From Treponemataceae bacterium (GTDB lineage: Bacteria; Spirochaetota; Spirochaetia; Treponematales; Rectinemataceae), in the NCBI GenBank assembly GCA_963678065.2, contig CAXXVZ010000005.1, positions 1,120,001 to 1,184,000 on the forward strand: a DNA stretch of 64,000 nucleotides, written 5' to 3'. Every line of letters begins with the position of its first letter. Position 1 is the stretch's first letter. Below, in pieces: positions 1,571 through 38,002 of this stretch. The notes below the pieces were generated by a model. That model was not told the origin of the DNA, searched no databases, and saw only the letters and a program-made list of their open reading frames with translations. A program made the position numbers and the translations under genes.

Positions 1571-1793
1571 CTTTACTGGATTCTCGCCCCGCTGTTTTTC
1601 TTCTCCACGAGCCACCTCCCCGGTTTCGGTTTTTTTGGTCTCAGCGAGCGAGGCATAGAGCAGATACAGCCACAGCGCCTCGGTGAAGGTCTGCAGCCAC
1701 CTCCGGAGAAACCCTTCCACTACGAGCAGTTCCACAGTCAGCTTGACGTGCTGCTGTGGCAGGAGAAGGGGCGCGCACCGCATGAAAGAGATT

Positions 1794-3869: not shown

Positions 3870-4306
3870 ATTTATGCCGTTGATCCGGAGAGTCGTTCTG
3901 CCATCGCCTCAGGACTCGGAATCATCGACAGATCCACCGCCCCAATCTCCGCGTCCTCGCGAAGCCGGTAATAGGCTCGCGAGCGTTCCGAGCCCCCTCG
4001 CGCAATCGACACGTAGTCGTACTCGACGAGCTGCCGCAGACTCTGCTTGATCCATGTATGCCCCAGCCCGGTCAGCTCCCGTACCTGCCGCTGCGTGAAG
4101 CTCACCTCTTCAGCCCGTAAGTGCTGCGCTCTCGCCTCGCGGCCCACCCACGTACGCAACTCGCCGTACAGTGTGTAGCGTAATCTAGAAATACCCGAAA
4201 AGATCAAACTGGAATGGACAGAAAAATCGTCAGAATTCCCCATAAAAATCGTGGGGAGGAAGTGGCGATGAAAACCCTGTAGGATTTATCCAGCAGGGAG
4301 GAGGGA

Positions 4307-5779
4307 ATGCTCCACATGAACCAGATTGATCACGTCAAAGATTTGCAAAGGCAGGGCTATGGTCCCTGCGAGATCGCTGAACGGCTGGGAATCGATCGAA
4401 AAACAACAGCGAAGTATATGAAGCAGGAGGACTTCAACGCCTCTACCGAAGTGCCCCGCGAGCTTCCCTCGAAACTTGATCGATGGAAGCCAACCATCGA
4501 TCAATGGCTTGCCGAAGACCTGAAGATGCGTTTCAAGCAGCGCCATAGGGCCATGAGGATCCATACAAGGCTTCTGGAAGAACACCCCGACGACTACGAC
4601 TGCTCATATCCTTTGGTCCAGCGCTATGTCAAACGGCGGAAAGCGGCCAGGAAAGAAGCGGAGGGGTTTCTTGAGCTCGTCTGGTCGAAAGGCGAGGCGC
4701 AGGCCGATTTCGGAGAGGCAGAACTGATCGAGGCCGGCGTTCGAAGGACCGTCAAATACCTGACCTTGACCTTTCCCTTCAGCAATGCGGGCTTTACGCA
4801 GTGTTTCAGCGGCGAGACGGCCGAATGTGTTTCCCAGGGGCTCAAAGATATATTCAGCCACATAGGTGGCGTTCCCGCCAGGATCGTGTTCGACAACGCA
4901 ACGGGCGTAGGCAGACGGGTCCGCGACCGTGTCACCTTGAGCCAGCTTTTCCTTCGGTTCAAATGCCACTATGGCTTTGCGGTCAGCTTCTGCAACCCTG
5001 CTTCAGGCCATGAGAAAGGGAATGTCGAAAACAAGATCGGCTATGCGAGAAGGAACTTCTTCGTTCCTCTGCCGGTTGTGGACAGCCTCGAGTCTTGGAA
5101 CAAGGAATTGCTCGAAAAAGCGGCGAAAGATCATGACCGATCGCATTACAAGAAAAATCAGAATATTGCCGAGTTGTTCGAAGAGGAGCGGCAGTCTTTA
5201 GGGCTTTTGCCGGTGCGAAGCTTCATCGTCGAGCGTTTCGAGCGAGTATCCACGGATGGCTACGGAAAGTTCTGCATTGACGGAAAGCATTGGTATTCAA
5301 GCGCTCCCGAATGCGGGAACAGCGAAGTGACCGTAGGGCTCAAGGCGCATGAACTCGTCGTGTACCGCAGCGAAGGAACCCCGTTGTGTGTCCACCGAAG
5401 AGTCTATGGCGACGAGCGGAGCGACAGCTGCGATTACCGAACAAGCCTTGAAACCCTCATGAAGAAGCCTGGCGCATGGATCAATAGCGCCTTTAGGGCA
5501 GGCGTTGACGATACCATACGAGTCGCGATGGACGAACTCTCAAAGCCTGATCTGCGCAATGTGCTGAAAGTCCTGGTGAAAAGCAGTACGACCTTTGGGT
5601 TCGACGTCGCCATGACCTCGCTTGAGGAAGCGATTGCCCGAGGCCGGCTGGACAGTTTCAGCCTTAGCGCGGTTGCTTCCAGGGTCGCCTTTGATGGGCT
5701 TCACGGCATTCCCTCCGAGGGACCCGACCTCGGAGCCTACGATCGCGCCCTCATGAGCAACTCGGAGACCGTGTCATGA
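4307..5779 (+). CDS. istA: IS21 transposase IstA
   Basis: N-terminal HTH; QADFG, VFDNA, EKGNVE DDE motifs. Confidence 0.95.
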   Translation: MLHMNQIDHVKDLQRQGYGPCEIAERLGIDRKTTAKYMKQEDFNASTEVPRELPSKLDRWKPTIDQWLAEDLKMRFKQRHRAMRIHTRLLEEHPDDYDCSYPLVQRYVKRRKAARKEAEGFLELVWSKGEAQADFGEAELIEAGVRRTVKYLTLTFPFSNAGFTQCFSGETAECVSQGLKDIFSHIGGVPARIVFDNATGVGRRVRDRVTLSQLFLRFKCHYGFAVSFCNPASGHEKGNVENKIGYARRNFFVPLPVVDSLESWNKELLEKAAKDHDRSHYKKNQNIAELFEEERQSLGLLPVRSFIVERFERVSTDGYGKFCIDGKHWYSSAPECGNSEVTVGLKAHELVVYRSEGTPLCVHRRVYGDERSDSCDYRTSLETLMKKPGAWINSAFRAGVDDTIRVAMDELSKPDLRNVLKVLVKSSTTFGFDVAMTSLEEAIARGRLDSFSLSAVASRVAFDGLHGIPSEGPDLGAYDRALMSNSETVS

Positions 5780-6555
5780 GAAAAGCGCGTGTCAATCGTG
5801 CCGAACTGCGCAGCGAAATCTCCGTACTGCTGCGCAAGATGGCCTTCAGCCAGACCGCGGTAAAGATCTGCGAGGAAGAGGCCAAGGCACCCCAGGAAGA
5901 GTTTCTCCTGAAGATCCTGAAGCGAGAGATGGCTAACCGCGACGATGTCCGCAGGGCACGATTCCTTCATGAAGCGGCCTTCCCCGTCTACAAAACCTTC
6001 GAGGGCTTTGATTTCTCCTGCGTGAAGCTGCCGCCGGCGCTTTCGAAACAGGAAATGATGACCACCCAGTTCGTCGCCGAGAAGAAAAACTTGGTGCTTT
6101 ACGGCCCCGTTGGAACTGGAAAGACACATCTTGCCACAGCCCTTGGCGTCACCGCGTGCTCTCGCACCTTCCGTACCAGGTTCTTTACCGCTGCAGAGCT
6201 GGTGGTAAGGCTTTCCGAAGCCCTTAAGGAAGGCTCGCTTGAGCGGCTTGTTATGTCCATCGCTCGGGCTGATCTCTTGATCATAGACGAATGGGGCTAT
6301 GTCCCCGTCGACCGGCAAGGAGCCCAGCTCCTGTTCAGGATAATTTCCGATTCCTATGAGCGCCGAAGCGTTATTCTCACGACCAATCTTGAATTCTCCA
6401 AATGGGGGACAATCTTCACGGACGATCAGATGGCTGCCGCCATGATCGACAGGCTTGCCCACCATGGTCACATTATTCTCTTCGAAGGTGAAAGCTACCG
6501 GATGAAACACGCACTCATGCGGCAGAAAGGCCAGGCACAATTACCCACCGGCTGA
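5776..6555 (+). CDS. istB: IS21 helper ATPase IstB
   Basis: GPVGTGKT, LLIIDEWGY, TTNL, AMIDRL. Confidence 0.95.
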   Translation: MRKARVNRAELRSEISVLLRKMAFSQTAVKICEEEAKAPQEEFLLKILKREMANRDDVRRARFLHEAAFPVYKTFEGFDFSCVKLPPALSKQEMMTTQFVAEKKNLVLYGPVGTGKTHLATALGVTACSRTFRTRFFTAAELVVRLSEALKEGSLERLVMSIARADLLIIDEWGYVPVDRQGAQLLFRIISDSYERRSVILTTNLEFSKWGTIFTDDQMAAAMIDRLAHHGHIILFEGESYRMKHALMRQKGQAQLPTG

Positions 6556-8046
6556 TGGGTGTTTTTGTACGATTTTTTCGGGTATTTCGCCTTGACGAAA
6601 CACAGTACAGCCCCACCGCCCCCGCGGGTAGCTCCCGTACCGTCGAGCTCATCACCCCCTCCACCATGATCGTGTACGCTACCCGGTAGTCCTCCAGGTC
6701 GCAGCGGATGAAGCTCACTGCCCCCTCACGCTCCTCACGCTTCTGGTACTGCCTCAGAAAGCACACGCTCGCGATCAGATCCAGAAACCGGTCATGGTCG
6801 CGGCGGCTCCGCATGAGACTCGTCGGAAACCCCAGGTGCACCGCAAAGTCGTTCACGATCGCCACCTTCCGCACCAGCCGCTGCGCCGCCTGGTGCGCCC
6901 GTATGATCCGCTCCGTCTCTCCGCGCCCAGTCCGCAAGCGTTCCAGCGAATACTTCTGCCGCTGCGCCTCGTGGATCCGCGCAGTCTGGATCTTCGACTC
7001 GTCCGCGTTCACCACGAAGCACCGGCTCGCGTTCTCCGGATTCACCGCATGGCTCGTCCCCGACAGCACGCTCGACACCACCACCGGCGTCCTGACCACC
7101 CGGCTCTGCATCGTCCCCGTCTCCGGGTCCTTCATCGTCACCAGCCTCGACAGCTCCTTGCCCGACAGCATCTCCCGGATCTGGTGCTCCACCACCTCCC
7201 CGTGCACCGCTTCTCCCAGAATCAGAAACTTGTGGCTCAGGTCCTCGATGTAGTTCAGTGCCTGGTCCGACAGGCTCGTCACCGCCACCACCTCCTCGGG
7301 CGGCATAAGCTTCCGCACCGTCTCCACGAGATAGCTCTTTCCCGCCGCGGACTGCGACAGAATCAAGACCGAGATCGGATCGTCCAGCTTCCGGCTCGAC
7401 GCGCACAGGTACAGAAGCTGCTTATTCAGGTCCTCTCCCACGTAGCCCAACGCGCTGAGATCCTCCACGATCCGCTCAAACAGGCGCGGGTCGCGCAACA
7501 GCGACAGCCCCAGCTCGCGGTCGGCCGCGCTCATCGGGACGCCCGCCTTCGTATTTCCCCGCCGCAGGGCCTCGTCGCGCTCGCACTCGAGATTCTCAAG
7601 GATCAGCACGAGGTCCTTCTGTGCCCGCGCGAGCTCCCACCCGAAGCTCCGCGCCACCGCCTGCGCAAAGCCGCCCCTCGCCTTCGCCGCGTACAGGTCC
7701 ACCGTGTCGTAGTAGCTCATCATCCCTGCACTCGCCCGGATCGCCACCTTCAGGCTCGTCACAAACAGCTGCCTGACCCCGCCTATGCGGTACGTCATCG
7801 CCCCCACACGGAACACATGGAACAGCCCATCCCGCTCGACGTGCAGCTCCGGTCCATCCGTCTCGTCCATGAAGCCGGCCGCTTCGCCCGGTCTCGCCTC
7901 CTCCTCTGCTGCCCCTGCCGGGGGCGACTCCGGGGGAACTGCGTCACCTTCGGTGACGACCTTCCCCGCGGAGTTGGGGGGAAGAAACGCGGCCCCAGGA
8001 AGGGACTCATCAGCGACCGCGAGTACCCGCTCGCTCTGGTCTCCCC

Positions 8047-8331
8047 TCATACCGCACCACGCCGCCCGGAGCGCCGCTCCCGGTCAAAGCTCTTCTTCGC
8101 CTCGTGCACATAGCTGTTCACCTGCCCATACGCCGAGCGAAAGGCGTGCAGGTTCACCACCGCCCGCTTCCCCCAAAACTCACCCTGCGCCCGCCCAAGC
8201 CCCTCTCCCCGGAAGCTCATTCGACAGGCCAGCGATTCCGACACCGGAATGCAGCTCACCTCCTCCAGCGTACACCCTGCCATGATCAGATACGCCGCTT
8301 CGTACAGATCCGTTACCTCCGCAGTTTCCAT
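8047..8331 (-). CDS. Small protein (94 aa, DUF5659-like), possible directionality/DNA-binding factor
   Basis: AAGGAGG RBS before METAEVTDLYEAAYL; stop overlaps ATPase start; present in both units. Confidence 0.7.
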   Translation of the reverse strand: METAEVTDLYEAAYLIMAGCTLEEVSCIPVSESLACRMSFRGEGLGRAQGEFWGKRAVVNLHAFRSAYGQVNSYVHEAKKSFDRERRSGRRGAV

Positions 8332-8479
8332 CCCCCGCCTCCTTTTTGCGGGCAATCTCGTCATCTCCCTGTCCTGTATGCTATCCTGTCTTCGCGTCAT
8401 GACGAGGTTCCCTCGTTGTGTCCTCGCCCGTTTCCCCGAAGCATCCACCACGACCTCAGGGGAAACGGGCTCCTTTGTA

Positions 8480-8569
8480 CCTGACATAAAACCATGTCAA
8501 GTACTATTATTGGTTTTGAGTATTATACATCATGTATTATATCGTCAAGCGGTAGGGTATACTTTTTCT
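8480..8569. promoter_or_regulatory. Divergent promoter/operator region
   Basis: AT-rich; palindromes TGACAT-N6-ATGTCA and ATACAT-C-ATGTAT; TATACT 6 nt before XRE ATG; TTGACG...TATAAT on minus strand. Confidence 0.55.
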
Positions 8570-8977
8570 ATGCCACAGCGACCGAAATATATTCTGCCGG
8601 ATATCTCCGAATCCTCTCACAATGTCGGTCAAAATATTGCCGCACTGCGCAAAAAAAAAGGACTCAGCCAAAAAGAACTGGCTCTGAAAATCGGCATCAC
8701 CCAGGCCTTGCTTTCACACTATGAAACCGCCCGTCTGAGTATTCCCGTCGAGGTTGTCATTCAGATTTCCATTTCGTTGAACGTACACGCGGATGTGATA
8801 TTGGGAATCGGAGCATCGGCACCGCTCGACGATGACTCGCCAAGCCGCAGAATTGTGCAGCGGGCGAAACTGATCGAGCGTCTTCCCGCCTTCGACCAGA
8901 AAGCCCTGCTCAAAACCATCGACAATGCGTTGAAAGGCGCCGGCATCACAACGGAAGATCCAAAAGTCTCTCACTGA
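8570..8977 (+). CDS. XRE-family HTH transcriptional regulator
   Basis: IAALRKKKGLSQKELALKIGITQALLSHYE. Confidence 0.92.
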   Translation: MPQRPKYILPDISESSHNVGQNIAALRKKKGLSQKELALKIGITQALLSHYETARLSIPVEVVIQISISLNVHADVILGIGASAPLDDDSPSRRIVQRAKLIERLPAFDQKALLKTIDNALKGAGITTEDPKVSH

Positions 8978-9381: not shown

Positions 9382-9444
9382 GCCTAACCTTCCGCTTAAA
9401 CGGCGAGGGCTTTTGGCCCGAGTCCGGTTGAAGCCGCGTTAGGC
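9382..9444 (-). other. attC-like site (63 bp, slightly degenerate)
   Basis: Minus strand GCCTAAC-GCGG-CTTCAACC...GTTTAAG-CGGAAG-GTTAGGC; immunity stop codon TAA lies inside R''. Confidence 0.75.
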
Positions 9445-9708: not shown

Positions 9709-10331
9709 TTCAACACCTCGACCAATTTAGCATCGATAAGGCTTCCCAAAGTGCTACGGAACATGTATTGAATACCACCACCGGCACTTCCATAATATGG
9801 CCCGGCAATACCAGCTTTTACTTCTAGATCGATCTTCGATCTATATGCAGTGTATTCACCAGAGTTCCATGGGGGTAATGCTCTTTCTTCTTTTGGAGTC
9901 CCTATCGGAGAAGCATATGAACCACGTGGATTCCCATATCTATCAAACGTCGAACCTGCGGGTAGGGTTGTTTCCCATGAAGCGCCAAACAGAAAGCCAT
10001 CAAACAAAGGATAGCAGACGTCTTCGACCAATGCTGGCGGTGGCGGCAATATCCCGGCTGTATTTAGCCCACCATATAGCCCAGTTACAACTGCAACAGC
10101 GGCGGTGGCAATATTATTAGTTGCACTAGTTACTACGTTTTTAGCAAGCTTCGCAGCCGATTCAAGCGAATTTATTATATTGCTAACAACATTTTCAGCA
10201 TCCGGCGGATCGCTCGAAGGAACAATATTCCCGGTACCAAGTCCTGATATTAGGCTGCTATCGGACGTCTCGCCCGTTGATTCGAACCGTTTCAGATCCC
10301 CCATCCCTGCCAACCCCGTGGGATCCGTGAA
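9705..10331 (-). pseudogene. Orphan Rhs tip, TNT (DUF4237) NAD+ glycohydrolase domain
   Basis: Begins FTDPTGL; LPAGSTFDRYG...YASP.GTP.EERALPP...GGGIQY. Confidence 0.88.
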
Positions 10332-10554
10332 CTTTACTGGATTCTCGCCCCGCTGTTTTTCTTCTCCACGAGCCACCTCCCCGGTTTCGGTTTTTTTGGT
10401 CTCAGCGAGCGAGGCATAGAGCAGATACAGCCACAGCGCCTCGGTGAAGGTCTGCAGCCACCTCCGGAGAAACCCTTCCACTACGAGCAGTTCCACAGTC
10501 AGCTTGACGTGCTGCTGTGGCAGGAGAAGGGGCGCGCACCGCATGAAAGAGATT

Positions 10555-11556
10555 CTATCCTGGCCGACCTTCCGGGACAAGGCGGGCGAGCCTTTTGATA
10601 TAGTCCCTGTCCACCTCCGCATAGATCGCCTGCTCCCTCGGGTGGTAGCGCCGATAGATCCGCTTAAGGTTCTCCGTCACGACGTGCGTGTACCGCGCCG
10701 TCGTCTCGACTCCTGCGTGACCCAAGAGTTCCTGGATCTGGCGCACGCTCACGCCGCGGCTTAAAAGATGGGTCGCGGTGGCATGCCGGACCGAGTGGGC
10801 CGACAGGGTCGGGTCGTCCATACCGAAGCGCCGCAGGAGGGTTCGGAAACGCTCACTCACACTCGCTGGCCTCACATGGCTCCCTGTCCTCGGTCCGCAG
10901 GTCCCCGTGAATATCCAGGCCTGCGGATCATGGGCGCGGTTCCCGAGGTACAGAAGCAGCACATCCCGCGCGACCTCCGAGATCGGCACGAGCCTGTCCT
11001 TGTCACCCTTGCCCCGCACGCGCATGATCCGGCGCTCGAAGTCCACGTCGCCCACCGTAAGGCCCGCAACTTCGCCCACACGAAGGCCAGCCGCGTACAC
11101 GAGCTCGAAGAGCGCGCGATCCCGCAATCCCTGCGTCGTCGTCGTATCGAGCTCGTCAAGAAAGCGCTGCATCTCCGTTTCTGTGAACGCGCGGCGGCGT
11201 ACAGACTCCGGGGGGAGCGGATCACCCAGTTGCCCGGCGGGGTTGTCGTCGATAAGCCCTGAGCGGTACAGACAGGCGTACAGAAGCCGTACCATCCCGA
11301 AGCGACTATTGACCGTCGTGTGCTTAAGCCGTTCTCCCGTCGTCTTCGACAGTCGCGCCGCGAGATCCTCGCGGTAGCCAAGGAGCTGCGCCGGCGTGAC
11401 CTGACGTATATCGCCTATCGCGTGCTCTTCGGTCCAGCGGTAATACCCTATGATCGTAGCACGCGCGTGGGCCATGTAGCACGCGCCGATCCGCCTGGCC
11501 ACGAGGTCCTCGCTCACCAGGTGCAGTCCCAAAGCTTGTACGGCCTCGCCAGTCAC
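10555..11556 (-). CDS. XerD-like tyrosine recombinase, intact
   Basis: Same protein sequence as 1794-2795. Confidence 0.93.
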   Translation of the reverse strand: MTGEAVQALGLHLVSEDLVARRIGACYMAHARATIIGYYRWTEEHAIGDIRQVTPAQLLGYREDLAARLSKTTGERLKHTTVNSRFGMVRLLYACLYRSGLIDDNPAGQLGDPLPPESVRRRAFTETEMQRFLDELDTTTTQGLRDRALFELVYAAGLRVGEVAGLTVGDVDFERRIMRVRGKGDKDRLVPISEVARDVLLLYLGNRAHDPQAWIFTGTCGPRTGSHVRPASVSERFRTLLRRFGMDDPTLSAHSVRHATATHLLSRGVSVRQIQELLGHAGVETTARYTHVVTENLKRIYRRYHPREQAIYAEVDRDYIKRLARLVPEGRPG

Positions 11557-12518
11557 GATCGGAACTCCCAGCTTCCGCGCGGGTGCGCCGCGTCCACCGC
11601 CGCGCGCAGGCTCTCCTTGCTCCGCCGCAGGTAGGTCTGTGTGCTGCCTAAGTTCCGAAACCCGACCAAGATTTGCACGTGCCGAAGGTCGCAGCCTGAC
11701 TCGACCAGGTGCGCCCCCAGGCTCGTCCGAAAGCCGTAGCTCGTGATCATCGGCAATCCCTCACTCGCACAGGTCTCGGCCAAAACCTCGTTGATCACCT
11801 GAGTCAGCCTCCCGTGCCCCGCGCCGAAGAGCGTGTGCGCGTACCCCCGCTCGTAGCCCCTGAACACAACCTCACGCCGGCAGAGATACTCCTTGAGCAC
11901 CCCCGCCGCGTAGCTCGTCAGGAATGCCGTCCGCCCCTGCCCCGAGCGCCCGCTCCGAACCCACACCGTCCGCTCGCGAAGATCAAGGTCAGCCGGTTCG
12001 AGCGCAGCCGCCTCACTCGCGTGCAAGCCCGCAGCGTACATGAGTTCCGCCGCCACGTGCACCCGATAGGTCTTTACCACCTTCCACCACGGCCGCACCT
12101 CATCGAAGCGCGACAGGGCCGCAAGGAGTCTCGCCATCTCCTCGACCGTCAGCGCATTCTCCGACAGATGCTCTCCCACCCGCACCCGACGGATCTCGCG
12201 GAAGGGATTCGTCCGTATCGTCCCCGTCTTCACGAGGTAGTCGAAGAACCGCCTGGCCGCTTTCAGATGGTTGTTGATCGTCCCCGCGTTGTACGGCCGC
12301 CCTGTCGCTGCTGTCATCGTCGACAGCTTCACCTGGTAGCGCAGAGCCTCAGCAAGCCCTACCTCCGCAACCTCGAGTTCCTCCGCTTCCAGCCATGAGC
12401 CGACGGTCCGCGCAAGCGTGCGTATCGACTCGTAACCCTGATCAGTTACCTTCGGCTGTTCTTCAGCGAGAAAGGCTTCGATCTGCGCCGAAAGCCGTAC
12501 GGAGTATATGCCATCCAC
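11553..12518 (-). CDS. XerC-like recombinase with degenerate active site (ORF opens at 12587)
   Basis: Same substitutions as 2792-3757. Confidence 0.88.
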   Translation of the reverse strand: MDGIYSVRLSAQIEAFLAEEQPKVTDQGYESIRTLARTVGSWLEAEELEVAEVGLAEALRYQVKLSTMTAATGRPYNAGTINNHLKAARRFFDYLVKTGTIRTNPFREIRRVRVGEHLSENALTVEEMARLLAALSRFDEVRPWWKVVKTYRVHVAAELMYAAGLHASEAAALEPADLDLRERTVWVRSGRSGQGRTAFLTSYAAGVLKEYLCRREVVFRGYERGYAHTLFGAGHGRLTQVINEVLAETCASEGLPMITSYGFRTSLGAHLVESGCDLRHVQILVGFRNLGSTQTYLRRSKESLRAAVDAAHPRGSWEFRS

Positions 12519-12632
12519 GTTCGCCTCTCTTCCCCGCCGGAATTGCGCGACCAGATTGGTAATTCCTTGTCGCGCCAGGGGCAACACTCGCTATCGGTAG
12601 TCAGTGCCCAGTTCTGCCCAGACTGACCAGAT

Positions 12633-14372
12633 TTATGCCGTTGATCCGGAGAGTCGTTCTGCCATCGCCTCAGGACTCGGAATCATCGACAGATCCACCG
12701 CCCCAATCTCCGCGTCCTCGCGAAGCCGGTAATAGGCTCGCGAGCGTTCCGAGCCCCCTCGCGCAATCGACACGTAGTCGTACTCGACGAGCTGCCGCAG
12801 ACTCTGCTTGATCCATGTATGCCCCAGCCCGGTCAGCTCCCGTACCTGCCGCTGCGTGAAGCTCACCTCTTCAGCCCGTAAGTGCTGCGCTCTCGCCTCA
12901 CGGCCCACCCAGGTCCGAAGCTCGCCATACAGCCCCACCGCCCCCGCGGGTAGCTCCCGCACCGTGCTCGCAAGCACCCCCTCCACCATGATCGTGTACG
13001 CGATCCGGTAGTCCTCCAGGTCGCAGCGGATGAAGCTCACTGCCCCCTCACGCTCCTCGTGCTTCTGGTACTGCCTCAGAAAGCACACGCTCGCGATCAG
13101 GTCCAGAAACCGGTCGTGGTCCCGCCGGCTCCGCATGAGACTCGTCGGAAACCCCAGGTGCACCGCAAAGTCGTTCACGATCGCCACCTTCCGCACCAGC
13201 CGCTGCGCCGCCTGGTGCGCCCGTATGATCCGCTCCGTCTCTCCGCGGCCTGCCCGCAAGCGTTCCAGCGAATACTTCTGCCGCTGCGCCTCGTGGATCC
13301 GCGCAGTCTGACCTCTCGACTCGTCCGCGTTCACCACAAAGCACCGACTCGCGTTCTCCGGATTCACCGCGTGGCTCGTTCCCGACAGCACGCTCGACAC
13401 CACCACCGGCGTCCTGACCACCCGGCTCTGCATCGTCCCCGTCTCCGGGTCCTTCATCGTCACCAGCCTCGACAGCTCCTTGCCCGACAGCATCTCCCGG
13501 ATCTGGTGCTCCACCACCTCCCCGTGCACCGCTTCTCCCAGAATCAGAAACTTGTGGCTCAGGTCCTCGATGTAGTTCAGTGCCTGGTCCGACAGGCTCG
13601 TCACCGCCACCACCTCCTCGGGCGGCATAAGCTTCCGCACCGTCTCCACGAGATAGCTCTTTCCCGCCGCGGACTGCGACAGAATCAAGACCGAGATCGG
13701 ATCGTCCAGCTTCCGGCTCGACGCGCACAGGTACAGAAGCTGCTTATTCAGGTCCTCTCCCACGTAGCCCAACGCGCTGAGATCCTCCACGATCCGCTCA
13801 AACAGGCGCGGGTCGCGCAACAGCGACAGCCCCAGCTCGCGGTCGGCCGCGCTCATCGGGACGCCCGCCTTCGTATTTCCCCGCCGCAGGGCCTCGTCGC
13901 GCTCGCACTCGAGATTCTCAAGGATCAGCACGAGGTCCTTCTGTGCCCGCGCGAGCTCCCACCCGAAGCTCCGCGCCACCGCCTGCGCAAAGCCGCCCCT
14001 CGCCTTCGCCGCGTACAGGTCCACCGTGTCGTAGTAGCTCATCATCCCTGCACTCGCCCGGATCGCCACCTTCAGGCTCGTCACAAACAGCTGCCTGACC
14101 CCGCCTATGCGGTACGTCATCGCCCCCACACGGAACACATGGAACAGCCCATCCCGCTCGACGTGCAGCTCCGGTCCATCCGTCTCGTCCATGAAGCCGG
14201 CCGCTTCGCCCGGTCTCGGCTCCTCCTCTTTTGCCCCTGCCGGGGGCGACTCCGGGGGAACGTCGTCACCTTCGGTGACTGCGTTCCCCGCGGAGTGGGG
14301 GGGAAGAAACGCGGCCCCAGGAAGGGACTCATCAGCGACCGCGAGTACCCGCTCGCTCTGGTCTCCCCTCAT
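12633..14372 (-). CDS. AAA+/helicase-like ATPase with C-terminal winged HTH
   Basis: Walker A variant SQSAAGKS, LILGE, ENASR; resembles the C-terminal part of primase-annotated proteins found beside paired Xer genes; start uncertain. Confidence 0.78.
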   Translation of the reverse strand: MRGDQSERVLAVADESLPGAAFLPPHSAGNAVTEGDDVPPESPPAGAKEEEPRPGEAAGFMDETDGPELHVERDGLFHVFRVGAMTYRIGGVRQLFVTSLKVAIRASAGMMSYYDTVDLYAAKARGGFAQAVARSFGWELARAQKDLVLILENLECERDEALRRGNTKAGVPMSAADRELGLSLLRDPRLFERIVEDLSALGYVGEDLNKQLLYLCASSRKLDDPISVLILSQSAAGKSYLVETVRKLMPPEEVVAVTSLSDQALNYIEDLSHKFLILGEAVHGEVVEHQIREMLSGKELSRLVTMKDPETGTMQSRVVRTPVVVSSVLSGTSHAVNPENASRCFVVNADESRGQTARIHEAQRQKYSLERLRAGRGETERIIRAHQAAQRLVRKVAIVNDFAVHLGFPTSLMRSRRDHDRFLDLIASVCFLRQYQKHEEREGAVSFIRCDLEDYRIAYTIMVEGVLASTVRELPAGAVGLYGELRTWVGREARAQHLRAEEVSFTQRQVRELTGLGHTWIKQSLRQLVEYDYVSIARGGSERSRAYYRLREDAEIGAVDLSMIPSPEAMAERLSGSTA

Positions 14373-14653
14373 ACCGCACCACGCCGCCCGGAGCGCCGCT
14401 CCCGGTCAAAGCTCTTCTTCGCCTCATGCACATAGCTGTTCACCTGCCCATACGCCGAGCGAAACGCACTCAGGTTCACCACCGCCCGCTTCCCCCAAAA
14501 CTCACCCTGCGCCCGTCCAAGCCCCTCTCCCCGGAAGCTCATTCGACAGGCCAGCGATTCCGACACCGGAATGCACCGCACCTCCTCCAGCGTACACCCT
14601 GCCATGATCAGATACGCCGCTTCGTACAGATCCGTTACCTCCGCAGTTTCCAT
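14369..14653 (-). CDS. Small protein (DUF5659-like)
   Basis: Paralog of 8047-8331. Confidence 0.7.
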   Translation of the reverse strand: METAEVTDLYEAAYLIMAGCTLEEVRCIPVSESLACRMSFRGEGLGRAQGEFWGKRAVVNLSAFRSAYGQVNSYVHEAKKSFDRERRSGRRGAV

Positions 14654-14891
14654 CCCCCGCCTCCTTTTTGCGGGGAATCTCGTCATCGTCCTGTCCTGTA
14701 TGCTATCCTGTCTTTGCGTCATGACGAGGTTCCCTCGTTGTGTCCTCGCCCGTTTCCCCGAAGCATCCACCACGACCTCAGGGGAAACGGGCTCCTTTGT
14801 ACCTGACATACAACCATGTCAAGTACTATTATTGGTTTTGAGTATTATACATCATGTATTATATCGTCAAGCGGTAGGATATACTTTTTCT

Positions 14892-15299
14892 ATGCCACAG
14901 CGACCGAAATATATTCTGCCGGATATCTCCGAATCCTCTCACAATGTCGGTCAAAATATTGCCGCACTGCGCAAAAAAAAAGGACTCAGCCAAAAAGAAC
15001 TGGCTCTGAAAATCGGCATCACCCAGGCCTTGCTTTCACACTATGAAACCGCCCGTCTGAGTATTCCCGTCGAGGTTGTCATTCAGATTTCCATTTCGTT
15101 GAACGTACACGCGGATGTGATATTGGGAATCGGAGCATCGGCACCGCTCGACGATGACTCGCCAAGCCGCAGAATTGTACAGCGGGCGAAACTGATCGAA
15201 CGTCTTCCCGCCTTCGACCAGAAAGCCCTGCTCAAAACCATCGACAATGCGTTGAAAGGCGCCGGCATCACAACGGAAGATCCAAAAGTCTCTCACTGA
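14892..15299 (+). CDS. XRE-family HTH regulator
   Basis: Same protein sequence as 8570-8977. Confidence 0.92.
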   Translation: MPQRPKYILPDISESSHNVGQNIAALRKKKGLSQKELALKIGITQALLSHYETARLSIPVEVVIQISISLNVHADVILGIGASAPLDDDSPSRRIVQRAKLIERLPAFDQKALLKTIDNALKGAGITTEDPKVSH

Positions 15300-15329
15300 C
15301 TGATGCTTCTGCTCCCTGCCCTCGACGAT

Positions 15330-15590
15330 GGCACCATCAAACACAGTCGCCCGACTGCGCCTAATTCTCGGTTGGCGGGGAGCGCCGTCCCAAGCCGTGC
15401 TTGGGAGAGCGCTCCCCCAAATCCGCTTTCGCGGACTTCGCCAACCTACGCATTAGACGCTATCGGGTCTGCCTTCCCCTTCGGCTCAATACTCGAAATT
15501 CACAAGTATGGAGTCAAGCATGCGGATGGTTGTCTTCCCATAGCCAAGGGGCTGCGCGACTACTGTCGCGATGCCCCGCGGCAGCTCTTC
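15330..15590. repeat. Conserved structured non-coding region, copy C (100-bp hairpin 15359-15458; no terminator or attC)
   Basis: Aligns to 9008-9267. Confidence 0.85.
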
Positions 15591-15662
15591 TCACCCCAGA
15601 TTCCCACGATTCCATAGCCACCGTGACGAAGGTACGGCATGCAGGAGCATATAAATAAAAAC

Positions 15663-16262
15663 TCAACCAGTCAGTGTTTTTTCAAAATTTACACCAGTTA
15701 TTTTTTTCTTCTGAATAGCCTTTTTTAGTTTTTCACTTACATAAAGGCCAGACGTAATCTTCCAAAGACTGTGATGTGCAGGCTTATGGAAAACACTGAA
15801 TTTTTCAACCTTATCTATAGAAAAGCACGGTTTCATAATCCGATCGGTACCTCGGACATACATTGTTTTTTGCACATCGATAACATCAAGCATTTTTGAG
15901 AATCGTAAAATAAAGTATATGCGCTGTTCTCCCCCACCATTTATTTTTGCTCTTATCCAATTAATTCCTTCATTACCAGATAAGTTTTCTTCAATGACAA
16001 CCTTTAGCCTCTCAGAAAATAAGGGCCAAGCCAAACTATTCGGTAAATAGTCGATCCATAGTTCTTTGATTTCTGAAAGGTCAGAGGACCTAATAAGCCC
16101 ATCTCCCTCTTTCGTCAATTTCACCAATGAAAACTCAAATGGCATTTCAGAAACACCATCGATCTCTGAAATCAACTCATGTGCCAACCGAGTTCCTTCT
16201 GGTGCAAACGCACTTGCTACTGGCGTGGAATCTGCACCACCAAATAGATAGTAATTCATCAT
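15663..16262 (-). CDS. Immunity protein (Imm11/DUF1629-like) for the AHH tip
   Basis: ATGA overlap with rhs1 stop; LFSERLK..IE, LDVID, LYVSEKLKKAI...ITGVNF. Confidence 0.78.
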   Translation of the reverse strand: MMNYYLFGGADSTPVASAFAPEGTRLAHELISEIDGVSEMPFEFSLVKLTKEGDGLIRSSDLSEIKELWIDYLPNSLAWPLFSERLKVVIEENLSGNEGINWIRAKINGGGEQRIYFILRFSKMLDVIDVQKTMYVRGTDRIMKPCFSIDKVEKFSVFHKPAHHSLWKITSGLYVSEKLKKAIQKKKITGVNFEKTLTG

Positions 16263-19200
16263 TGCCACCAAGCTTTTCTTAACATCCCAGGGTTTTCTAT
16301 AACTGGAGTCTTTACATATTGGTTGAACAATTCAAGGAACTTTGCCTGACTAGTTCCGGCGCCAACCGCTGCATCTTGCATACCCTGTTGAACAAAATCA
16401 TGATAGGCATCTGGATGTCGGCCTAAATGAGGCATCAACTCTTTGTTCCATGCTTCATCCAGCTTCAGTCCAAATTTCTCTGCAATATCTTCCATTTGTT
16501 GGGTAAACTTAGAGTTTTTATTAGTTGCAAAGTGATGAAGTTGTTCTTCGTAAATTAAGCAATAATCATTCAATAAATTGGCAACATTATTTCCATATAG
16601 CAGTCTCAGTACAGAATCGCTAGCATTGTTCATCCCCTGCAGGAGAGAACCGACTGCTTTTGCTACATCTTCAATAACCTCCCTTCTTCCTTCTGCTCTT
16701 TCTGCTTTCTCAAATTCCTTGACCCTATTTTCAGAATCCCCACTCGAAGCACTCAATTTGCCATTATTATCAGATAAAATGTGCCCGCCATGGTGATCAT
16801 CATCTACTTCATGAGCTAGTCCCGAGGGATCTGTGAACGAGAGCGGATTGTTGCCACAGTAGACGAACCAGTTGCCCCCATCCCTGACCGGGTCCTCAGA
16901 GTAGAACCTCCCCGCCACACAATCATAGTACCGCGCATTGAAGTAGTACAGTCCCGTCGCGTCTCGCTCCTTCCCCGTGTACGACACATCCTGACTCCCG
17001 TCGTACCCGTTGTAGTTCGTCACCGTCGAGCCACCCCACACCGCATAGTCGATCTTCGCCTTCACCGTCCCCGCCGTGTCCGTGACTGCCCTCCGCGATC
17101 CCAGGTTGTCCTGCCACACGTACTCTAGCCGCTCCGTGTTCCCCACGTAGTCCTTCACGTACCGTCCGACTTCCATACCCCCAAGCCGCACGTTCACCTG
17201 CGCCGTCTTCCACGTGCTCCCCTCCATCCTCTCCTTCAGCAGTATCTCGTTCCCCTCGTACACGTACAGCGTCGTCGTCACCGCTCCCGTCGTCGACGTC
17301 TCATCTTTCCGATACCGCAGCCCGTCCGGGTAGTACCGATAGCTGTCCGTCTGCGTTCCACCTGCGTTCCTCGCCAGGTCTCCCATACCCTCCAGCCGCC
17401 CGTACACGTCCCACGTAAGGCTCGCGTACCGGTTCTGCACACCCGTCACCCACCCCCGACTCGCGTCGTCCGTCACGGCTTGCGAACTCGGATGCGTGAT
17501 GTTCCGTAGGAGCATGCTGTTCACTCCCGACACCGGCGCATAGCCATAGCTCGCCGGATCTGTCCCCGTCGACTGTGTCAGGTTCCCGATCGCGTCGTAG
17601 CCGTAGCTTGTTCCCCCTCCCGTCGACAGGCGGTTCATCCCGTCGTACCCGTAGCTCACCCCGTCCCGCCCCGTCACGTTCCCCATCCGATCGTACGTGT
17701 AGCTCCCGTCGCACAGGCTCCCCGGATTGTCCACCGAACTCATTCGCAGCCACGTGTCGTACCCGTACACCGCCGTTCCCCCCGACGTCCCGTACGATAC
17801 CGCCGTCCGTCCTCCCCAGAACGACAGTCCTGTCCGCCCTAGCAGGTTCGACGAACTGTCCGACACCGACAGCGTGTTCGTGTTCCCGCCATACCCTGTT
17901 CCGCCGAAGTACGGTGTCGCATAGTTCACGGCCTTCGCGTACCCACCAAACCCCGTCACCGTCACACTCGCCGGATTGTTCGCCAGGTCGTAGGTCCTCA
18001 CTACCGTCGCCGTCTTCGACCCCGCCTGAGTCGGGACGGTCCGACTCTCTTTGGCCGGTATCCCGTTCACCCCGTATTCCCACGCCACCGTCTGGCTCGG
18101 CGTCGATTCACCCCCTCGCTGCTCAGCCACCGTGGCCGGACCATACTGGCAGTACGCGCTTGTCACTACGAGCGTCGCGGGCTGCGGGCTCCTCGTCGAC
18201 GCTGTCGTCCTCGTCCGCTCCATCCCCGCCTTATTGTACGTGTAACTCACTGTGTCGCCGTTCAGCTCCGTCGCGACACGCACCCGTCCGTCCGGGTAGT
18301 ACGTGTTCGACTTACTCCCCCGCCCCATAGGGTAGCTTTCCGTCTGCAGCCGTCCCGCACGCGTGTACACGTACGTGTACGCTTCCCCGTTCGGCATCGT
18401 CTTCGACGTCACCTGTCCCGTAAAATTATAAGCGTACGACGTCGTCCGGCTGTTCCCTCCCCCGTTCGTCCCGTCCCACTGGATCTCCGAGCTTGTCCGT
18501 CCCAGCCAGTCTTTCTGCGTCCTCGTCCTCGTGTACGTCGACCCATCCCGGTACCTGTCCACCGTCACCGTGTTCTGGCTGTCGTCGTAGGCCGTCGCCA
18601 CCATCGTCACCTGTGAGCCGGAGCTCGGCCCCGACTGCACCTGCACAGGCCGCCCCAGCACATCGTAGCTGTAGCTCGTCACAAGTTGCGTCGAAAGACC
18701 TGCGTCCAGATACACCGTCTCGCTCTTCACGAGCGATGGCATCGCCATATCCCACGTCTTCACCACCTTCCCGATCGCCACCTCTCCTGACCCCGTGTAT
18801 GTCGCGTCCCTGCTCGCCGTATCCGGCTTGTACGGTATCTCCTGCAGAAGCCGTCCGTAGAAATCGTACCGCGATTCGGTGCGGAATCCTTTCCCGTCCG
18901 TCGCCGTCGACCACAGTCCATTCGTGTCCTGCCCATACTCGTACCGCCCGAGTGTCGTCTCTGTCCCGCTCACCACCCGTGACTTCTTCGTCACTCGTCC
19001 CAGTCCATCACACTCGAGCTTACTCGTCGCTGCGGGATACTTCGTCCCGTCGATTGCGGTCCCCTGTGAATCCGTGACGACCGTCCCTTCCTGCAGCCGT
19101 CGTCCCGCAAGGTCATAATCATACGTGGTGACGACACGATCATTCGTTCCGATGTTCGCCCCCAGCTCCTTCGTCTGTGTCGTCACGAACGAGCTCTTCC

Positions 19201-21805
19201 ACCCGCTCCCGTAGCTGAACGAGGTCGTCGTCGTACTTGAGTCCCCCCAGGGCTCCGTCACGCTCGCAAGCGTATTCGTCGAGCTGTTCCACGCACTCGT
19301 CACCGTCTTGGTGTTGGCCGTCCCGTTCGCATAGTATTCAAGATCTTTCGTCTCGAGCAGCTTCAGGTCTGATTGGTATTTCCGGTATGTCTTGAAGCAC
19401 GATCCTGAAGCCTGCTCGACCGCCTCTCCCGCTATGATCCCGAAGCCTTTCACCAGGTTGTCCGTGAAGTTGTTCGTCGATGTGTACGGATTGTCCCAGA
19501 AGGTGGTGTCAGACGTAAGCGTATTGAGGTAGGCCGTGTATGTACTTCCCGCAAGGCTGTTCTGCGTCCGCGTCCGCCGCCCATCGCTGTCGTACGAATG
19601 CGTCAGCGTGTACCGCGATGTACCGGAATCCCCGATGTAGACATATTCGTACTGCGTGCGATAGCTCCCAAGTAACGAGGAAGTCGGGGTGAATGAGCGC
19701 CCTGTTTTCGTATAGAAGTCACTTGAGTTCTTGTACGTGATATCCGTTCCCACGCCAAGGTATTCTCTGTCAGGCGCACTACCAGCATGGGAAAACTGTA
19801 CTTCGCGCTTTGTTATCGCCGTCTCACTACCACTAACCCGGTACGTCGCAATCGTCGTCTTCGACGGAAAGATATCCCACGCCGTTGGGCATCCTGTCGT
19901 CGAACGCTGATAATCCGAAGATGTGAACGCAGATTGTCCATACGTCGATTCATAGCTGTAATAGTCTTTCGCGTACTCCGTCGATCCGGACTGTTCCTTG
20001 CGGATGACGTTCGTCACCTTCGGTTTGTTTTCATAGTATCGATCCCAAAATTCATTTCTATCTCCTGGCGGATCGACGTCATTGGAATGATAGTACGTAT
20101 TATACCCATTCGGATGGAACGAAATCCCGAACGTATATTTCGAGTACCCTTTCCCCGGCGATTGCACTTCGATGTAGTCCCCTGTCACTCCCGAACTCAG
20201 CGAGTACCCGTAGGTCGTCGAACGCAACACCGTGCTGTACGTCGACTCGTTCGACAGGCTCGGCGTGAACGAGGTGATGGTCTGCGTGATCGGCACCGTT
20301 CCCAGTTCATCGATCGCAATGATCCGCCCCGACGAGTCGAGTGTCTTCCGCTGCAGAAACAGATCCCCCGGATTCAGCGTCGTCCCGTTCGTGGTCGACG
20401 ACAGGATGTACACGATCTTTGTCTGACCATTCGATCCCGCGTAGCTGTAAATCTTCACCGCACGTCCGTCCGTGTGGTCCATCAGCGTCAAGGTCGTCCC
20501 CGAGTAGCTGAACGTGACGCCGTTCACCAGGGACGGATCCCAGATCTTCGACACATACCCCGATCCCGTGAACTCTGCCTCTCGTCCGTCCGGATAGAAG
20601 AGCCGCGCAGACGTCGCCTTGTAGTTGTACCAATACGTCGTAATGGGATCATCGTCTCGCGGTTGGTATGTACTCCATGAAACCAATTCATATATGGTAA
20701 AGCGACCTGTGTACCCTACTTCCGGAATCCGTACCGTCAGGGTTGTACCGGATTTCCGTATGATGTACCGATCGGTTTGAATATCGGTATCCGATGCCCA
20801 GCTTCTCCAGCCATTCATCACATTTGACAAGTCAAAGACTGTCCCGTTGGGGATCATCAATTTCAACGTATCGTAGCTGCCATAGGTACAGAATGGTAAA
20901 TCGTAGCTCCACCCTTTCGCGTACTCATACGGGCTGTTGTTTTTGGGGCTGACACAGGTGATACCCGACGAATTTATACCACTCGTTAACGTTTGGACAT
21001 ACAATGAATATACGTAGTCCGAATTAAAACTCGACTCGAGACCGAATCCGATCCCCCGTGCGGGAATGTCCACCTCGGTGCTGTCCATGAGGAGCGTCCC
21101 GAAGTACGGGTCCACCCGCTCACTCCTCGATCCTCCCAAGCCCACGAGCGTTCCCGCTTCATTGACTCTGCTGAATGATAATCCAGTCTGATAATAGCTG
21201 AAGTGCTCGATGGATGCCGTAATGGTGTGCGTAACCATGTCCTGGCTCAGCTTCGGCACAACCTCCCACCGCTTCACGCTTTCATTGTACCAGAACACCT
21301 GGATCTGGCTCTCCGGCATCCCCTCTGGACAGGTGTACGGCAGCGTCAGCCTCGCAGGCTTCGTGAACCGCAGCTTCTCAGGCCCAAACTCCCACACCGG
21401 ACCCGTGATCCCCATCCCGTCGATCTGTCCGTTCCGCCCTGCCGCCGGTCCTCCTACCTGCCTCACCGTCATCGCCAGTCCCCGGTTCCCCAGTCCCTGC
21501 CCCGTCTTCGCAAACGTACTCGCCGCCACACGCCCGCCCGACTTCCCCGACTGCCTGACCGTCGCCACCGACAGGTCCACCGCCTCTGAATCGAACTCGA
21601 TCTGTCCCGCCCCCGTGCCGAAGCTGAACGTGTGCCGTCCCTTCACGAGCGGCGTGTACGAGTCCGTCCCGTCCGTTCCCCGTTCGATCCGGTACGCGCC
21701 TCCGGCAGTCGCCGCTTCCGGCGCCCGTGTCTGTGCCCATGCGCCCATGGCAGCGCAGGCGAACACGATGCAGGCTCTCAGCTTCTTCCTCGCGGGCTTG
21801 TTCAT
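16259..21805 (-). CDS. Rhs/YD-repeat polymorphic toxin 1: Sec signal, ZU5-like domain, Rhs core, AHH-type HNH nuclease tip
   Basis: YD repeats, YTGKERDATGLYYFNARYYD, NNPLSFTDPSG; tip LHHFAT...N...HLGRH...YH. Confidence 0.93.
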   Translation of the reverse strand: MNKPARKKLRACIVFACAAMGAWAQTRAPEAATAGGAYRIERGTDGTDSYTPLVKGRHTFSFGTGAGQIEFDSEAVDLSVATVRQSGKSGGRVAASTFAKTGQGLGNRGLAMTVRQVGGPAAGRNGQIDGMGITGPVWEFGPEKLRFTKPARLTLPYTCPEGMPESQIQVFWYNESVKRWEVVPKLSQDMVTHTITASIEHFSYYQTGLSFSRVNEAGTLVGLGGSRSERVDPYFGTLLMDSTEVDIPARGIGFGLESSFNSDYVYSLYVQTLTSGINSSGITCVSPKNNSPYEYAKGWSYDLPFCTYGSYDTLKLMIPNGTVFDLSNVMNGWRSWASDTDIQTDRYIIRKSGTTLTVRIPEVGYTGRFTIYELVSWSTYQPRDDDPITTYWYNYKATSARLFYPDGREAEFTGSGYVSKIWDPSLVNGVTFSYSGTTLTLMDHTDGRAVKIYSYAGSNGQTKIVYILSSTTNGTTLNPGDLFLQRKTLDSSGRIIAIDELGTVPITQTITSFTPSLSNESTYSTVLRSTTYGYSLSSGVTGDYIEVQSPGKGYSKYTFGISFHPNGYNTYYHSNDVDPPGDRNEFWDRYYENKPKVTNVIRKEQSGSTEYAKDYYSYESTYGQSAFTSSDYQRSTTGCPTAWDIFPSKTTIATYRVSGSETAITKREVQFSHAGSAPDREYLGVGTDITYKNSSDFYTKTGRSFTPTSSLLGSYRTQYEYVYIGDSGTSRYTLTHSYDSDGRRTRTQNSLAGSTYTAYLNTLTSDTTFWDNPYTSTNNFTDNLVKGFGIIAGEAVEQASGSCFKTYRKYQSDLKLLETKDLEYYANGTANTKTVTSAWNSSTNTLASVTEPWGDSSTTTTSFSYGSGWKSSFVTTQTKELGANIGTNDRVVTTYDYDLAGRRLQEGTVVTDSQGTAIDGTKYPAATSKLECDGLGRVTKKSRVVSGTETTLGRYEYGQDTNGLWSTATDGKGFRTESRYDFYGRLLQEIPYKPDTASRDATYTGSGEVAIGKVVKTWDMAMPSLVKSETVYLDAGLSTQLVTSYSYDVLGRPVQVQSGPSSGSQVTMVATAYDDSQNTVTVDRYRDGSTYTRTRTQKDWLGRTSSEIQWDGTNGGGNSRTTSYAYNFTGQVTSKTMPNGEAYTYVYTRAGRLQTESYPMGRGSKSNTYYPDGRVRVATELNGDTVSYTYNKAGMERTRTTASTRSPQPATLVVTSAYCQYGPATVAEQRGGESTPSQTVAWEYGVNGIPAKESRTVPTQAGSKTATVVRTYDLANNPASVTVTGFGGYAKAVNYATPYFGGTGYGGNTNTLSVSDSSSNLLGRTGLSFWGGRTAVSYGTSGGTAVYGYDTWLRMSSVDNPGSLCDGSYTYDRMGNVTGRDGVSYGYDGMNRLSTGGGTSYGYDAIGNLTQSTGTDPASYGYAPVSGVNSMLLRNITHPSSQAVTDDASRGWVTGVQNRYASLTWDVYGRLEGMGDLARNAGGTQTDSYRYYPDGLRYRKDETSTTGAVTTTLYVYEGNEILLKERMEGSTWKTAQVNVRLGGMEVGRYVKDYVGNTERLEYVWQDNLGSRRAVTDTAGTVKAKIDYAVWGGSTVTNYNGYDGSQDVSYTGKERDATGLYYFNARYYDCVAGRFYSEDPVRDGGNWFVYCGNNPLSFTDPSGLAHEVDDDHHGGHILSDNNGKLSASSGDSENRVKEFEKAERAEGRREVIEDVAKAVGSLLQGMNNASDSVLRLLYGNNVANLLNDYCLIYEEQLHHFATNKNSKFTQQMEDIAEKFGLKLDEAWNKELMPHLGRHPDAYHDFVQQGMQDAAVGAGTSQAKFLELFNQYVKTPVIENPGMLRKAWWQ

Positions 21806-38001: not shown

Positions 38002-38002
38002 T

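What the first reader, a model, noticed from the sequence alone, without database searches (positions are those of the whole stretch)
11553..12518. Paired recombinases: one intact, one with systematically replaced catalytic residues
The upstream paralog has Arg-I to His (GLHASE), no Lys in the GKG hairpin (SGRSG), HxxR to YGFR and His-III to Phe (LVGF), but keeps the Tyr, full length and translational coupling, in both units. Inference: a binding-only partner. A heterotetramer with a single active pair would perform only one strand exchange, which is how attC recombination works and would fit the lack of overlap homology at the junctions.
Basis: partly seen in the sequence, partly recalled or inferred. 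Interest (0 to 1): 0.78.

Follow-up and report, generated by a model that had tools for sequence, protein, structure and literature searches.

The report
Toxin-tip-swapping element with crippled recombinase partner
Two neighbouring DNA-cutting enzyme genes, one intact and one with four of its six catalytic residues changed yet still conserved, sit in a mobile element whose end abuts the point where bacterial Rhs toxins carry interchangeable killing tips, so the element likely swaps those tips using the altered enzyme mainly as a helper.

Summary
The substitutions are real in both copies (H166, R191, Y261, R264, F287, Y296; partner intact). They mark a derived clade of 18 proteins. The other 47 family members are canonical or nearly so, and 72 of 89 tandem pairs in related loci have two intact enzymes. 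The altered gene is under purifying selection like its partner (dN/dS 0.16-0.24 vs 0.17-0.23), so it is not decaying. Arg-I and the Tyr nucleophile vary within the clade (4 and 2 of 18), which favours loss of cutting. But each window change is one that Cre tolerates singly, except Lys-to-Arg, so 'slow' is not excluded. The pair belongs to an undescribed family of integrative elements ending at the codons of the Rhs cleavage motif; 36 of 53 scorable relatives are followed by an Rhs-type tip, and the window array reads as serial tip displacement. The attC idea fails: no integron insertion, no hairpin, overlaps differ by only 1-2 of 6 bases, and an element with two intact enzymes also has a mismatched overlap. 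The closer model is XerC/XerD at the CTX and VGJ phages. Activity was not shown.

The parts
11553..12518 (-). Recombinase A* (altered partner), 321 aa: H166 / R191 / Y261 / R264 / F287 / Y296
   Evidence: AlphaFold model pLDDT 83, Xer fold
10555..11556 (-). Recombinase B, 333 aa, canonical R-K-H-R-H-Y; start overlaps the A* stop (GTGA)
10311..10343 (-). Right junction of element 1 (inferred attR): element end joined to the N-P-x4-D-P-x-G codons of a displaced tip; crossover inferred near base 12/13 counted from 10343
10344..10544 (-). Short leader reading frame at the element's right end, in frame with the displaced tip; homologous frame in L065
9705..10325 (-). Orphan Rhs tip with a TNT-family domain
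   Evidence: PF14021
9439..9708 (-). Likely immunity gene of that tip (by position; no Pfam, NCBIfam or PHROG hit)
12633..14372 (-). P-loop ATPase, replication/primase-associated type (ESM Atlas PF27228 clusters, score 0.99)
   Evidence: conserved upstream of A in most related loci
14369..14809 (-). Small conserved ORF (about 100 aa in relatives); no family hit; excisionase-like role is a guess
14892..15299 (+). XRE-family HTH repressor, divergent
15300..15620 (.). Structured intergenic segment downstream of the immunity gene (DNA fold z -4.75; no Rfam hit); full or partial copies near 9010-9350, 141-399 and 38562-38899
15663..16271 (-). Imm11 immunity gene of the tip now on Rhs1
16259..21805 (-). 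Full-length Rhs gene (Rhs1) with AHH nuclease tip; the target gene
16817..16849 (-). Core-tip junction of Rhs1 (inferred attL)
2792..3757 (-). Second copy of A* (98% aa; differences clustered in one patch)
1794..2795 (-). Second copy of B (identical)
1550..1582 (-). Right junction of element 2 (inferred attR)
495..1564 (-). Second orphan tip (1001-1564) and its likely immunity gene (495-1019); no Pfam hit
3872..8977 (-). Rest of element 2: ATPase interrupted by an IS21 (about 4172-6604), small ORF 8047-8487, HTH 8570-8977 (+)
32383..38470 (+). Second Rhs gene (Rhs2; core identical to Rhs1 over 2.9 kb, different tip) with Imm26; junction 37354-37386; no element behind it

Best explanation
The altered recombinase is a conserved partner that likely no longer cuts DNA efficiently and likely works beside its intact neighbour in a two-enzyme integrase, which is predicted to insert the element at the codons of the Rhs toxin cleavage motif, putting its own toxin tip and immunity gene onto the host Rhs core and pushing the old tip downstream. 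Shown: the substitutions, their clade-wide conservation, purifying selection, the intact partner, the gene order, and the position of the element end at the Rhs motif. Inferred: an A*/B complex in which each subunit binds one arm of a roughly 32-bp site (N-P-x-x codons, 6-bp middle, D-P-x-G-L codons); B exchanges one pair of strands near base 12/13; replication resolves the junction, as for XerC with a structural XerD at the CTX and VGJ phages. Because the two arms must follow protein codons and the middle bases vary, the second exchange was probably often blocked already in the ancestral two-active-enzyme elements, which would have let one lineage lose A's catalysis while keeping A as an arm-binding subunit.
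For: Clade of 18: Lys position Arg 17 / Lys 1; His-II Tyr 17 / Asp 1; His-III Phe 12 / Leu 5 / Tyr 1; Arg-I Arg 14 / His 3 / Cys 1; Tyr 16 / Phe 2; 47 canonical relatives show one departure in all (6 of 36 vs 1 of 94 at Arg-I plus Tyr, Fisher p 0.002, kin not independent). The departures fall on separate branches. dN/dS A* 0.16-0.24, B 0.17-0.23 among window, L065, L066. B relatives canonical in 117 of 120. Intact two-domain Xer fold predicted. Nine of 147 wider relatives are fusions of two recombinases. An Rhs cleavage motif lies within 560 nt after B in 36 of 53 scorable pairs, against 2.4% of random genome windows and 2 of 72 upstream controls. Three comparisons with identical left flanks stay identical to base 12-13 and then diverge. 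Cre: only Tyr and Lys are strictly required, and no K201 substitution recombined in vitro (PMC2943603). XerD is only structural in CTX integration (PMC3442271).
Against: In Cre, R173H is robustly active, W315F near wild type in vivo, His289 tolerates Tyr (about 7% of natural enzymes have it) and K201R keeps weak in vivo activity, so the window set could be a slow enzyme; P0018 keeps Arg, Lys, Arg and Tyr. Most of the family works with two intact enzymes (72 of 89 pairs). No excised circle or empty site was listed in four runs (contigs only). The crossover estimate rests on three comparisons; L078a/b stay identical to base 23, and the Rhs1/Rhs2 identity could come from gene conversion. The dyad at the proposed centre is weak (0.37-0.45 vs medians 0.24-0.26). 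17 scorable pairs have no Rhs motif within 560 nt. dN/dS rests on three independent sequences with dS 0.8-1.1.
Confidence: 0.55

Rival explanations
1. A* is a slowed but working catalyst: the substitutions tune down one of the two strand exchanges (for example to bias towards integration), and both subunits still cut.
For: Each window change matches a substitution that Cre tolerates singly; R173H and W315F/Y accumulate Holliday junctions (PMC2943603). Arg-II and Glu169 are invariant in 18 of 18, Tyr is kept in 16 of 18 and Arg-I in 14 of 18; Arg191 and Tyr261 are nearly fixed rather than random.
Against: No K201 substitution gave in vitro recombination in Cre, and four changes would compound. 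Two members lack the Tyr, one has Cys at Arg-I and one has Asp at His-II, which is inactive in Cre. Arg-I is no more conserved than an average column in the clade (62% of columns match or exceed it).
Confidence: 0.25
2. A* has become a separate accessory factor (directionality factor, arm-site binder or regulator), and B recombines as a homotetramer.
For: 21 of 121 columns conserved in canonical A are fixed at a new residue in the clade, several next to the Tyr in the C-terminal helices; B of this clade has a GKGDKDR hairpin where most other B have GKFDRDR.
Against: The site arms are only weakly symmetric, which suits two different binders; 82 of 121 conserved columns are kept; fusions exist in the wider family.
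Confidence: 0.12
3. A* donates its Tyr in trans to B's active site, as Flp subunits do.
For: Tyr296 is kept in the window while the pocket residues are changed; trans donation is known for Flp (PMC2943603).
Confidence: 0.04
4. A* is a decaying pseudogene of a dead or non-autonomous element, and tips were shuffled by homologous recombination.
For: The window copies lack the ParA gene of relatives, one ATPase carries an IS21, no excision was seen, and L119 shows a frame break in an A*-like gene.
Against: dN/dS about 0.2 over dS about 1; full length across 50-80% identity; the same element end is joined to different tips.
Confidence: 0.04

Closest known systems
XerC/XerD at CTX and VGJ phage integration (IMEX; PMC3442271, passages read)
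   Same: Two related tyrosine recombinases; one pair of strand exchanges; the second enzyme only structural; mismatch in the overlap; resolution thought to be by replication; tandem insertions.
   Different: There the enzymes are the host's and both are catalytically intact, and the target is dif. Here both are element-encoded, one is genetically altered, and the target is coding sequence of an Rhs gene. No fold-back attP was found.
Rhs C-terminal displacement (Jackson et al. 2009, PMC2935791, passages read)
   Same: Full Rhs gene followed by a string of orphan tip-immunity pairs in one orientation; circular intermediate proposed.
   Different: [quoted passage not shown] Here the orphans carry almost no core sequence and each follows a recombinase-pair element or an element-type end.
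Tn554 TnpA/TnpB tandems and RIT trios (PMC3414803, PMC8138268, passages read)
   Same: Adjacent, overlapping tyrosine recombinase genes on a mobile element; in Tn554 both are required.
   Different: Two genes of about 320-335 aa each, no long TnpB-type extension, no third recombinase, a replication-type ATPase and repressor, and an Rhs target. Those papers report potential catalytic motifs in all partners.
Integron IntI / attC
   Same: Serial same-direction cassette array next to a tyrosine recombinase; single exchange (recalled, not read here).
   Different: No IntI insertion, no attC-like hairpin at the junctions, score far below the integron cut-off, and the recombinase genes travel with each unit.
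XerC/D-adjacent polyimmunity loci and rAID arrays (PMC3482391 passage; rAID recalled)
   Same: Xer-like recombinase beside antagonism genes, suggested to accumulate them.
   Different: Those collect immunity genes behind one recombinase; here whole tip-immunity pairs are joined at the Rhs cleavage codons.

Membership tests
Tyrosine recombinase superfamily (A*) | Core-binding plus catalytic domain fold | tested here: met
   PF00589 74.9 bits over cut-off 27.1; model matches XerA, IntI4, Tn1549 Int
Tyrosine recombinase superfamily (A*) | R-K-H-R-H/W-Y catalytic set | tested here: not met
   H-R-Y-R-F-Y in the window
Tyrosine recombinase superfamily (A*) | Forms a 3'-phosphotyrosine intermediate | not testable with these tools
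   needs a cleavage assay
Integron IntI/attC | IntI-specific insertion between patch III and box II (feature recalled) | tested here: not met
   30 residues from LF to His-II, as in canonical A; no long gap against XerD; TIGR02249 48.6 bits vs cut-off 265
Integron IntI/attC | Single-stranded hairpin recombination site | tested here: not met
   16 of 17 junction regions (140 nt) fold no better than shuffles; window z +0.6 and +0.9; L073 is the exception; no Rfam hit in 1-40000
Chromosomal XerC/XerD | Reaches the XerC or XerD equivalog cut-off | tested here: not met
   A* 125 and B 185-188 bits vs about 330-335; other Xer-like genes lie elsewhere in the genome
IMEX (CTX/VGJ type) | Uses host XerCD at dif | tested here: not met
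   own recombinase pair; end lies in Rhs coding sequence
IMEX (CTX/VGJ type) | One strand exchange resolved by replication | tested here: inconclusive
   the middle 6 bases differ between junctions with identical left flanks in 3 comparisons, which fits but does not prove it
RIT elements | Three adjacent recombinase genes | tested here: not met
   two in the window and in nearly all loci; L036 has more
Tn554-like | Long (over 600 aa) partner and TnpC | tested here: not met
   321 and 333 aa; TnpC itself was not searched for
Integrative element | Defined ends with related junction sequences | tested here: met
   fixed right end at the Rhs motif in 36 of 53 pairs; L007 left and right junctions share 23 bases
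Integrative element | Excised circle or empty site observed | tested here: inconclusive
   none listed in 4 runs of assembled contigs, which drop rare forms

The most novel reading that the evidence does not exclude
This is an undescribed family of integrative elements built to re-arm Rhs toxins by site-specific recombination at the cleavage-motif codons, and in this clade one of its two recombinases has become an obligate pseudo-enzyme, so that insertion is a one-exchange, nearly one-way ratchet that stacks tip-immunity pairs behind the Rhs core.
Probability: 0.4. Interest if true: 0.85.

Novelty: new variant of a known kind. Interest (0 to 1): 0.7.

Why it matters
How Rhs genes gain new toxin tips has been open since C-terminal displacement was described; the published model invokes homologous recombination and notes that no integrase was known (PMC2935791). 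This family supplies a candidate enzyme pair and a candidate site of about 32 bp, so the question becomes testable on plasmids with a harmless reporter. The altered clade adds a natural experiment: sister elements with two intact enzymes and with one intact plus one altered enzyme can be compared to ask whether a natural tyrosine pseudo-recombinase can serve as an obligate structural subunit, something I found reported only for XerD mutants at CTX. It also warns that motif loss alone does not prove inactivity, since these are the very substitutions Cre tolerates.

Tried and rejected
Excision: four runs (X1, X4, X5, X6 of 18 listed) were laid on 9350-18000; the joints listed are explained by the second unit and by Rhs2, element depth is about twice tip depth as expected for two copies, and no circle or empty site was listed; all are contigs and 101 loose ends were not shown. 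No RNA holder listed. More DNA of the altered clade: none in viral contigs, plasmids at E 1e-25, or 401 order-level and 69 family-level genomes beyond distant matches of 32-49% identity, so dN/dS uses only the window, L065 and L066; L119 was left out because its A gene is split and truncated. attC-type hairpin and integron membership: rejected. The idea that mismatched overlaps mark the altered clade: rejected by L011 (1 of 6 matches with two intact enzymes), although L007 and L078a/b match fully. A perfect 9-bp inverted repeat at the L007 junction does not generalise. tRNA at the array end: none. Literature: ten searches listed no paper describing recombinase-pair elements at Rhs junctions; most listed papers were seen as listings only, and subscription papers and supplements were not seen. 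Earlier scan notes: nothing by place or sequence.

Full report
Observation. Window 11553-12518 (-) encodes a 321-aa tyrosine recombinase, here called A*. Its six catalytic positions read His166, Arg191, Tyr261, Arg264, Phe287, Tyr296, with the same codons in the second copy at 2792-3757. The next gene, B (10555-11556), is canonical and overlaps the A* stop in GTGA. An AlphaFold model of A* (pLDDT 83) has the complete two-domain fold and matches XerA, IntI4 and Tn1549 Int.

Is the change systematic? A homologue search gave a close group (50-81% identity) and a wider family. In the close group of 18, window included, the Lys position is Arg in 17, His-II is Tyr in 17, His-III is Phe, Leu or Tyr in all 18, and Arg-II is invariant. 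Arg-I is Arg in 14, His in 3 and Cys in 1; the Tyr is Phe in 2. The 47 wider members are canonical except for one Trp at Arg-I. A FastTree tree of 78 selected proteins makes the 16 altered sequences included one clade (support 1.00), with canonical sequences as sister and basal branches, so the state is derived; the B proteins closest to the window form a matching clade. In 142 fetched loci I found 89 tandem pairs: 72 with two canonical enzymes, 2 altered A plus canonical B (L065, L066), 2 with His-II to Tyr in B, 11 with truncated B, and 2 in a locus with more recombinases. B relatives are canonical in 117 of 120. Pairing of altered A with intact B is seen directly in the window, L065 and L066; for five more it is inferred from equal contig lengths.

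Selection. Nei-Gojobori dN/dS among window, L065 and L066 is 0.16-0.24 for A* and 0.17-0.23 for B, with overlapping bootstrap ranges and dS 0.8-1.1. A* is therefore maintained. Of 121 columns at least 90% conserved in canonical A, the clade keeps 82, fixes a new residue at 21 and relaxes 18, Arg-I among them.

Dead or slow? In Cre (PMC2943603; abstract, sections 19, 20 and 22, and passages read) only the Tyr and the Lys are strictly required. Against a working site: the Lys is gone in 17 of 18, four changes would compound, and Arg-I and Tyr have been lost on separate branches (6 of 36 vs 1 of 94). I put no or negligible cutting by A* at about two in three and slowed cutting at one in four. That paper also notes that enzymes lacking Arg-I may be an inactive group that kept Arg-II and Tyr, so altered recombinases as such are not new.

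Context. The pair ends a module: divergent XRE repressor, small ORF, replication-type ATPase, A, B. The order recurs in most related loci, whose named records are largely Spirochaetia; four relatives read in detail (L066, L007, L078, L106) also carry ParA before the ATPase and some carry toxin-antitoxin cargo; the window copies lack ParA. On the minus strand the window reads: Rhs1 core, AHH tip, Imm11, element 1, TNT-family tip and likely immunity gene, element 2 (IS21 in its ATPase), third tip and immunity gene, and just left of the window a fourth, amidase-like tip behind an element-type end. Every element end joins the codons N-P-x4-D-P-x-G. Among related pairs 36 have this motif within 560 nt after B, 17 with enough sequence do not, and 36 are truncated and were not scored; chance rates are 2.4% in random windows and 2 of 72 upstream. 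Some subfamilies join further up in the core. In a groundwater run of another study the Rhs core continues into a tip unlike either window tip at the same motif (X6, loose end at 16827, one contig).

The site. Counting from the Asn codon, junctions with identical left flanks stay identical to base 12 or 13 and then differ at 13, 14 or 18: element 1 vs 2, Rhs1 vs Rhs2, L076 vs L078. The L076/L078 case is the best, because an unusual K-P-Y-N stretch follows the element end across three tips. This puts the crossover near base 12/13 and makes bases 13-18 the likely overlap. In the window these differ by 1, 2 and 2 bases between successive junctions. Among elements with two intact enzymes, L007 and L078a/b match fully but L011 matches at 1 of 6. 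Mismatch is thus modest here and not confined to the altered clade. Dyad symmetry around base 16.5 is weak. Junction regions do not form hairpins (16 of 17), A* has no IntI insertion, and the integron model scores 48.6 against 265: not attC recombination.

Mechanism. Most likely (0.55) an element-encoded XerC/XerD-like pair binds a site written in Rhs codons, B makes one strand exchange and replication finishes it, with A* holding the other arm. The precedent is CTX and VGJ integration, where XerC exchanges one pair of strands, XerD is structural and the overlap is mismatched beside the XerD cut (PMC3442271, passages). Nine fusions of two recombinases among 147 wider relatives, six with His-II changed in one half, support a two-subunit complex. 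The complex itself could not be modelled. No excised form was listed in assembled contigs, so present activity is unknown. How an element picks up a new tip is unexplained; the structured segment behind four immunity genes (z -4.75) is a candidate second site or a scar.

Known and new. Jackson et al. 2009 (PMC2935791, passages) explain orphan tips by homologous recombination and state that no integrase was known with Rhs. Zhang et al. 2012 (PMC3482391, passages of the first 300,000 characters) mention XerC/D only beside polyimmunity loci. Two surveys of tyrosine recombinases (PMC3414803, PMC8138268; passages) give Tn554 tandems, RIT trios and BIM; the second has no mention of Rhs. Ten searches listed no description of this family; subscription journals and supplements were not seen, and I recall, without a call to show it, single XerC-like genes with primases beside Rhs fragments in proteobacterial annotations, so part of this may be in print. 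Verdict: real and conserved; first reading partly supported; new variant of known kinds; interest 0.70, carried as much by the Rhs-targeting element as by the altered subunit.

Noticed in passing
window 10344-10544 (-); L065, L080, L086, L106, L008, L015: The element's right end holds a short hydrophobic reading frame in frame with the displaced tip (39% identity to L065, E 7e-9; weaker to L080, L086). It could let a displaced tip be expressed with a new leader. Other subfamilies, L066 included, have a stop just upstream.
   Followed up: partly
window 15300-15620, 9010-9350, 141-399, 38562-38899; L001 12407-12457: Strongly folding segment of about 300 bp downstream of immunity genes, also behind Rhs2 where no element follows; no Rfam hit; partial copies in L067 and L075.
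   Followed up: partly
window 14369-14372 vs L066 3647-4405, L007, L078, L106: Both window elements lack the ParA gene that these relatives carry between the small ORF and the ATPase.
   Followed up: partly
window 11742-12006 vs second copy: The two A* copies differ in a tight patch while 1.4 kb next to the junction, including B, is identical: a mosaic from recombination with a diverged relative. Run X4 shows only the second allele.
   Followed up: partly
window 16817-21889 and 32299-37386: Two Rhs genes in inverted orientation, identical over 2.9 kb of core but with different tips, flank a type II secretion gene cluster.
   Followed up: no
L001 13282-13944 (window -56 and left): The last orphan tip (amidase-like) follows an element-type end whose first 24 junction bases equal those of L065, with no recombinase genes before it: probably the scar of another, deleted element.
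   Followed up: partly
P0328, P0349, P0360, P0366, P0369, P0373, P0374, P0375, P0379: Fusions of two tyrosine recombinases (620-790 aa); six have His-II replaced in one half. Genomic context not seen.
   Followed up: no
run X5, window 16307-16798: A contig at depth 293 carries the AHH tip without differences but leaves the window sequence at 16798, so the same tip sits in another context in that sample.
   Followed up: no
L014, L074, L078, L080, L095: Tandem arrays of elements with two intact recombinases, in L074, L078, L080 and L095 with an Rhs-type tip after the element end; L078 carries a ParE-type gene and L066 a BrnT/BrnA pair as cargo.
   Followed up: partly
window 4172-6604: IS21-family element (IstB hit, 34-bp inverted ends) inside the ATPase gene of element 2.
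   Followed up: no
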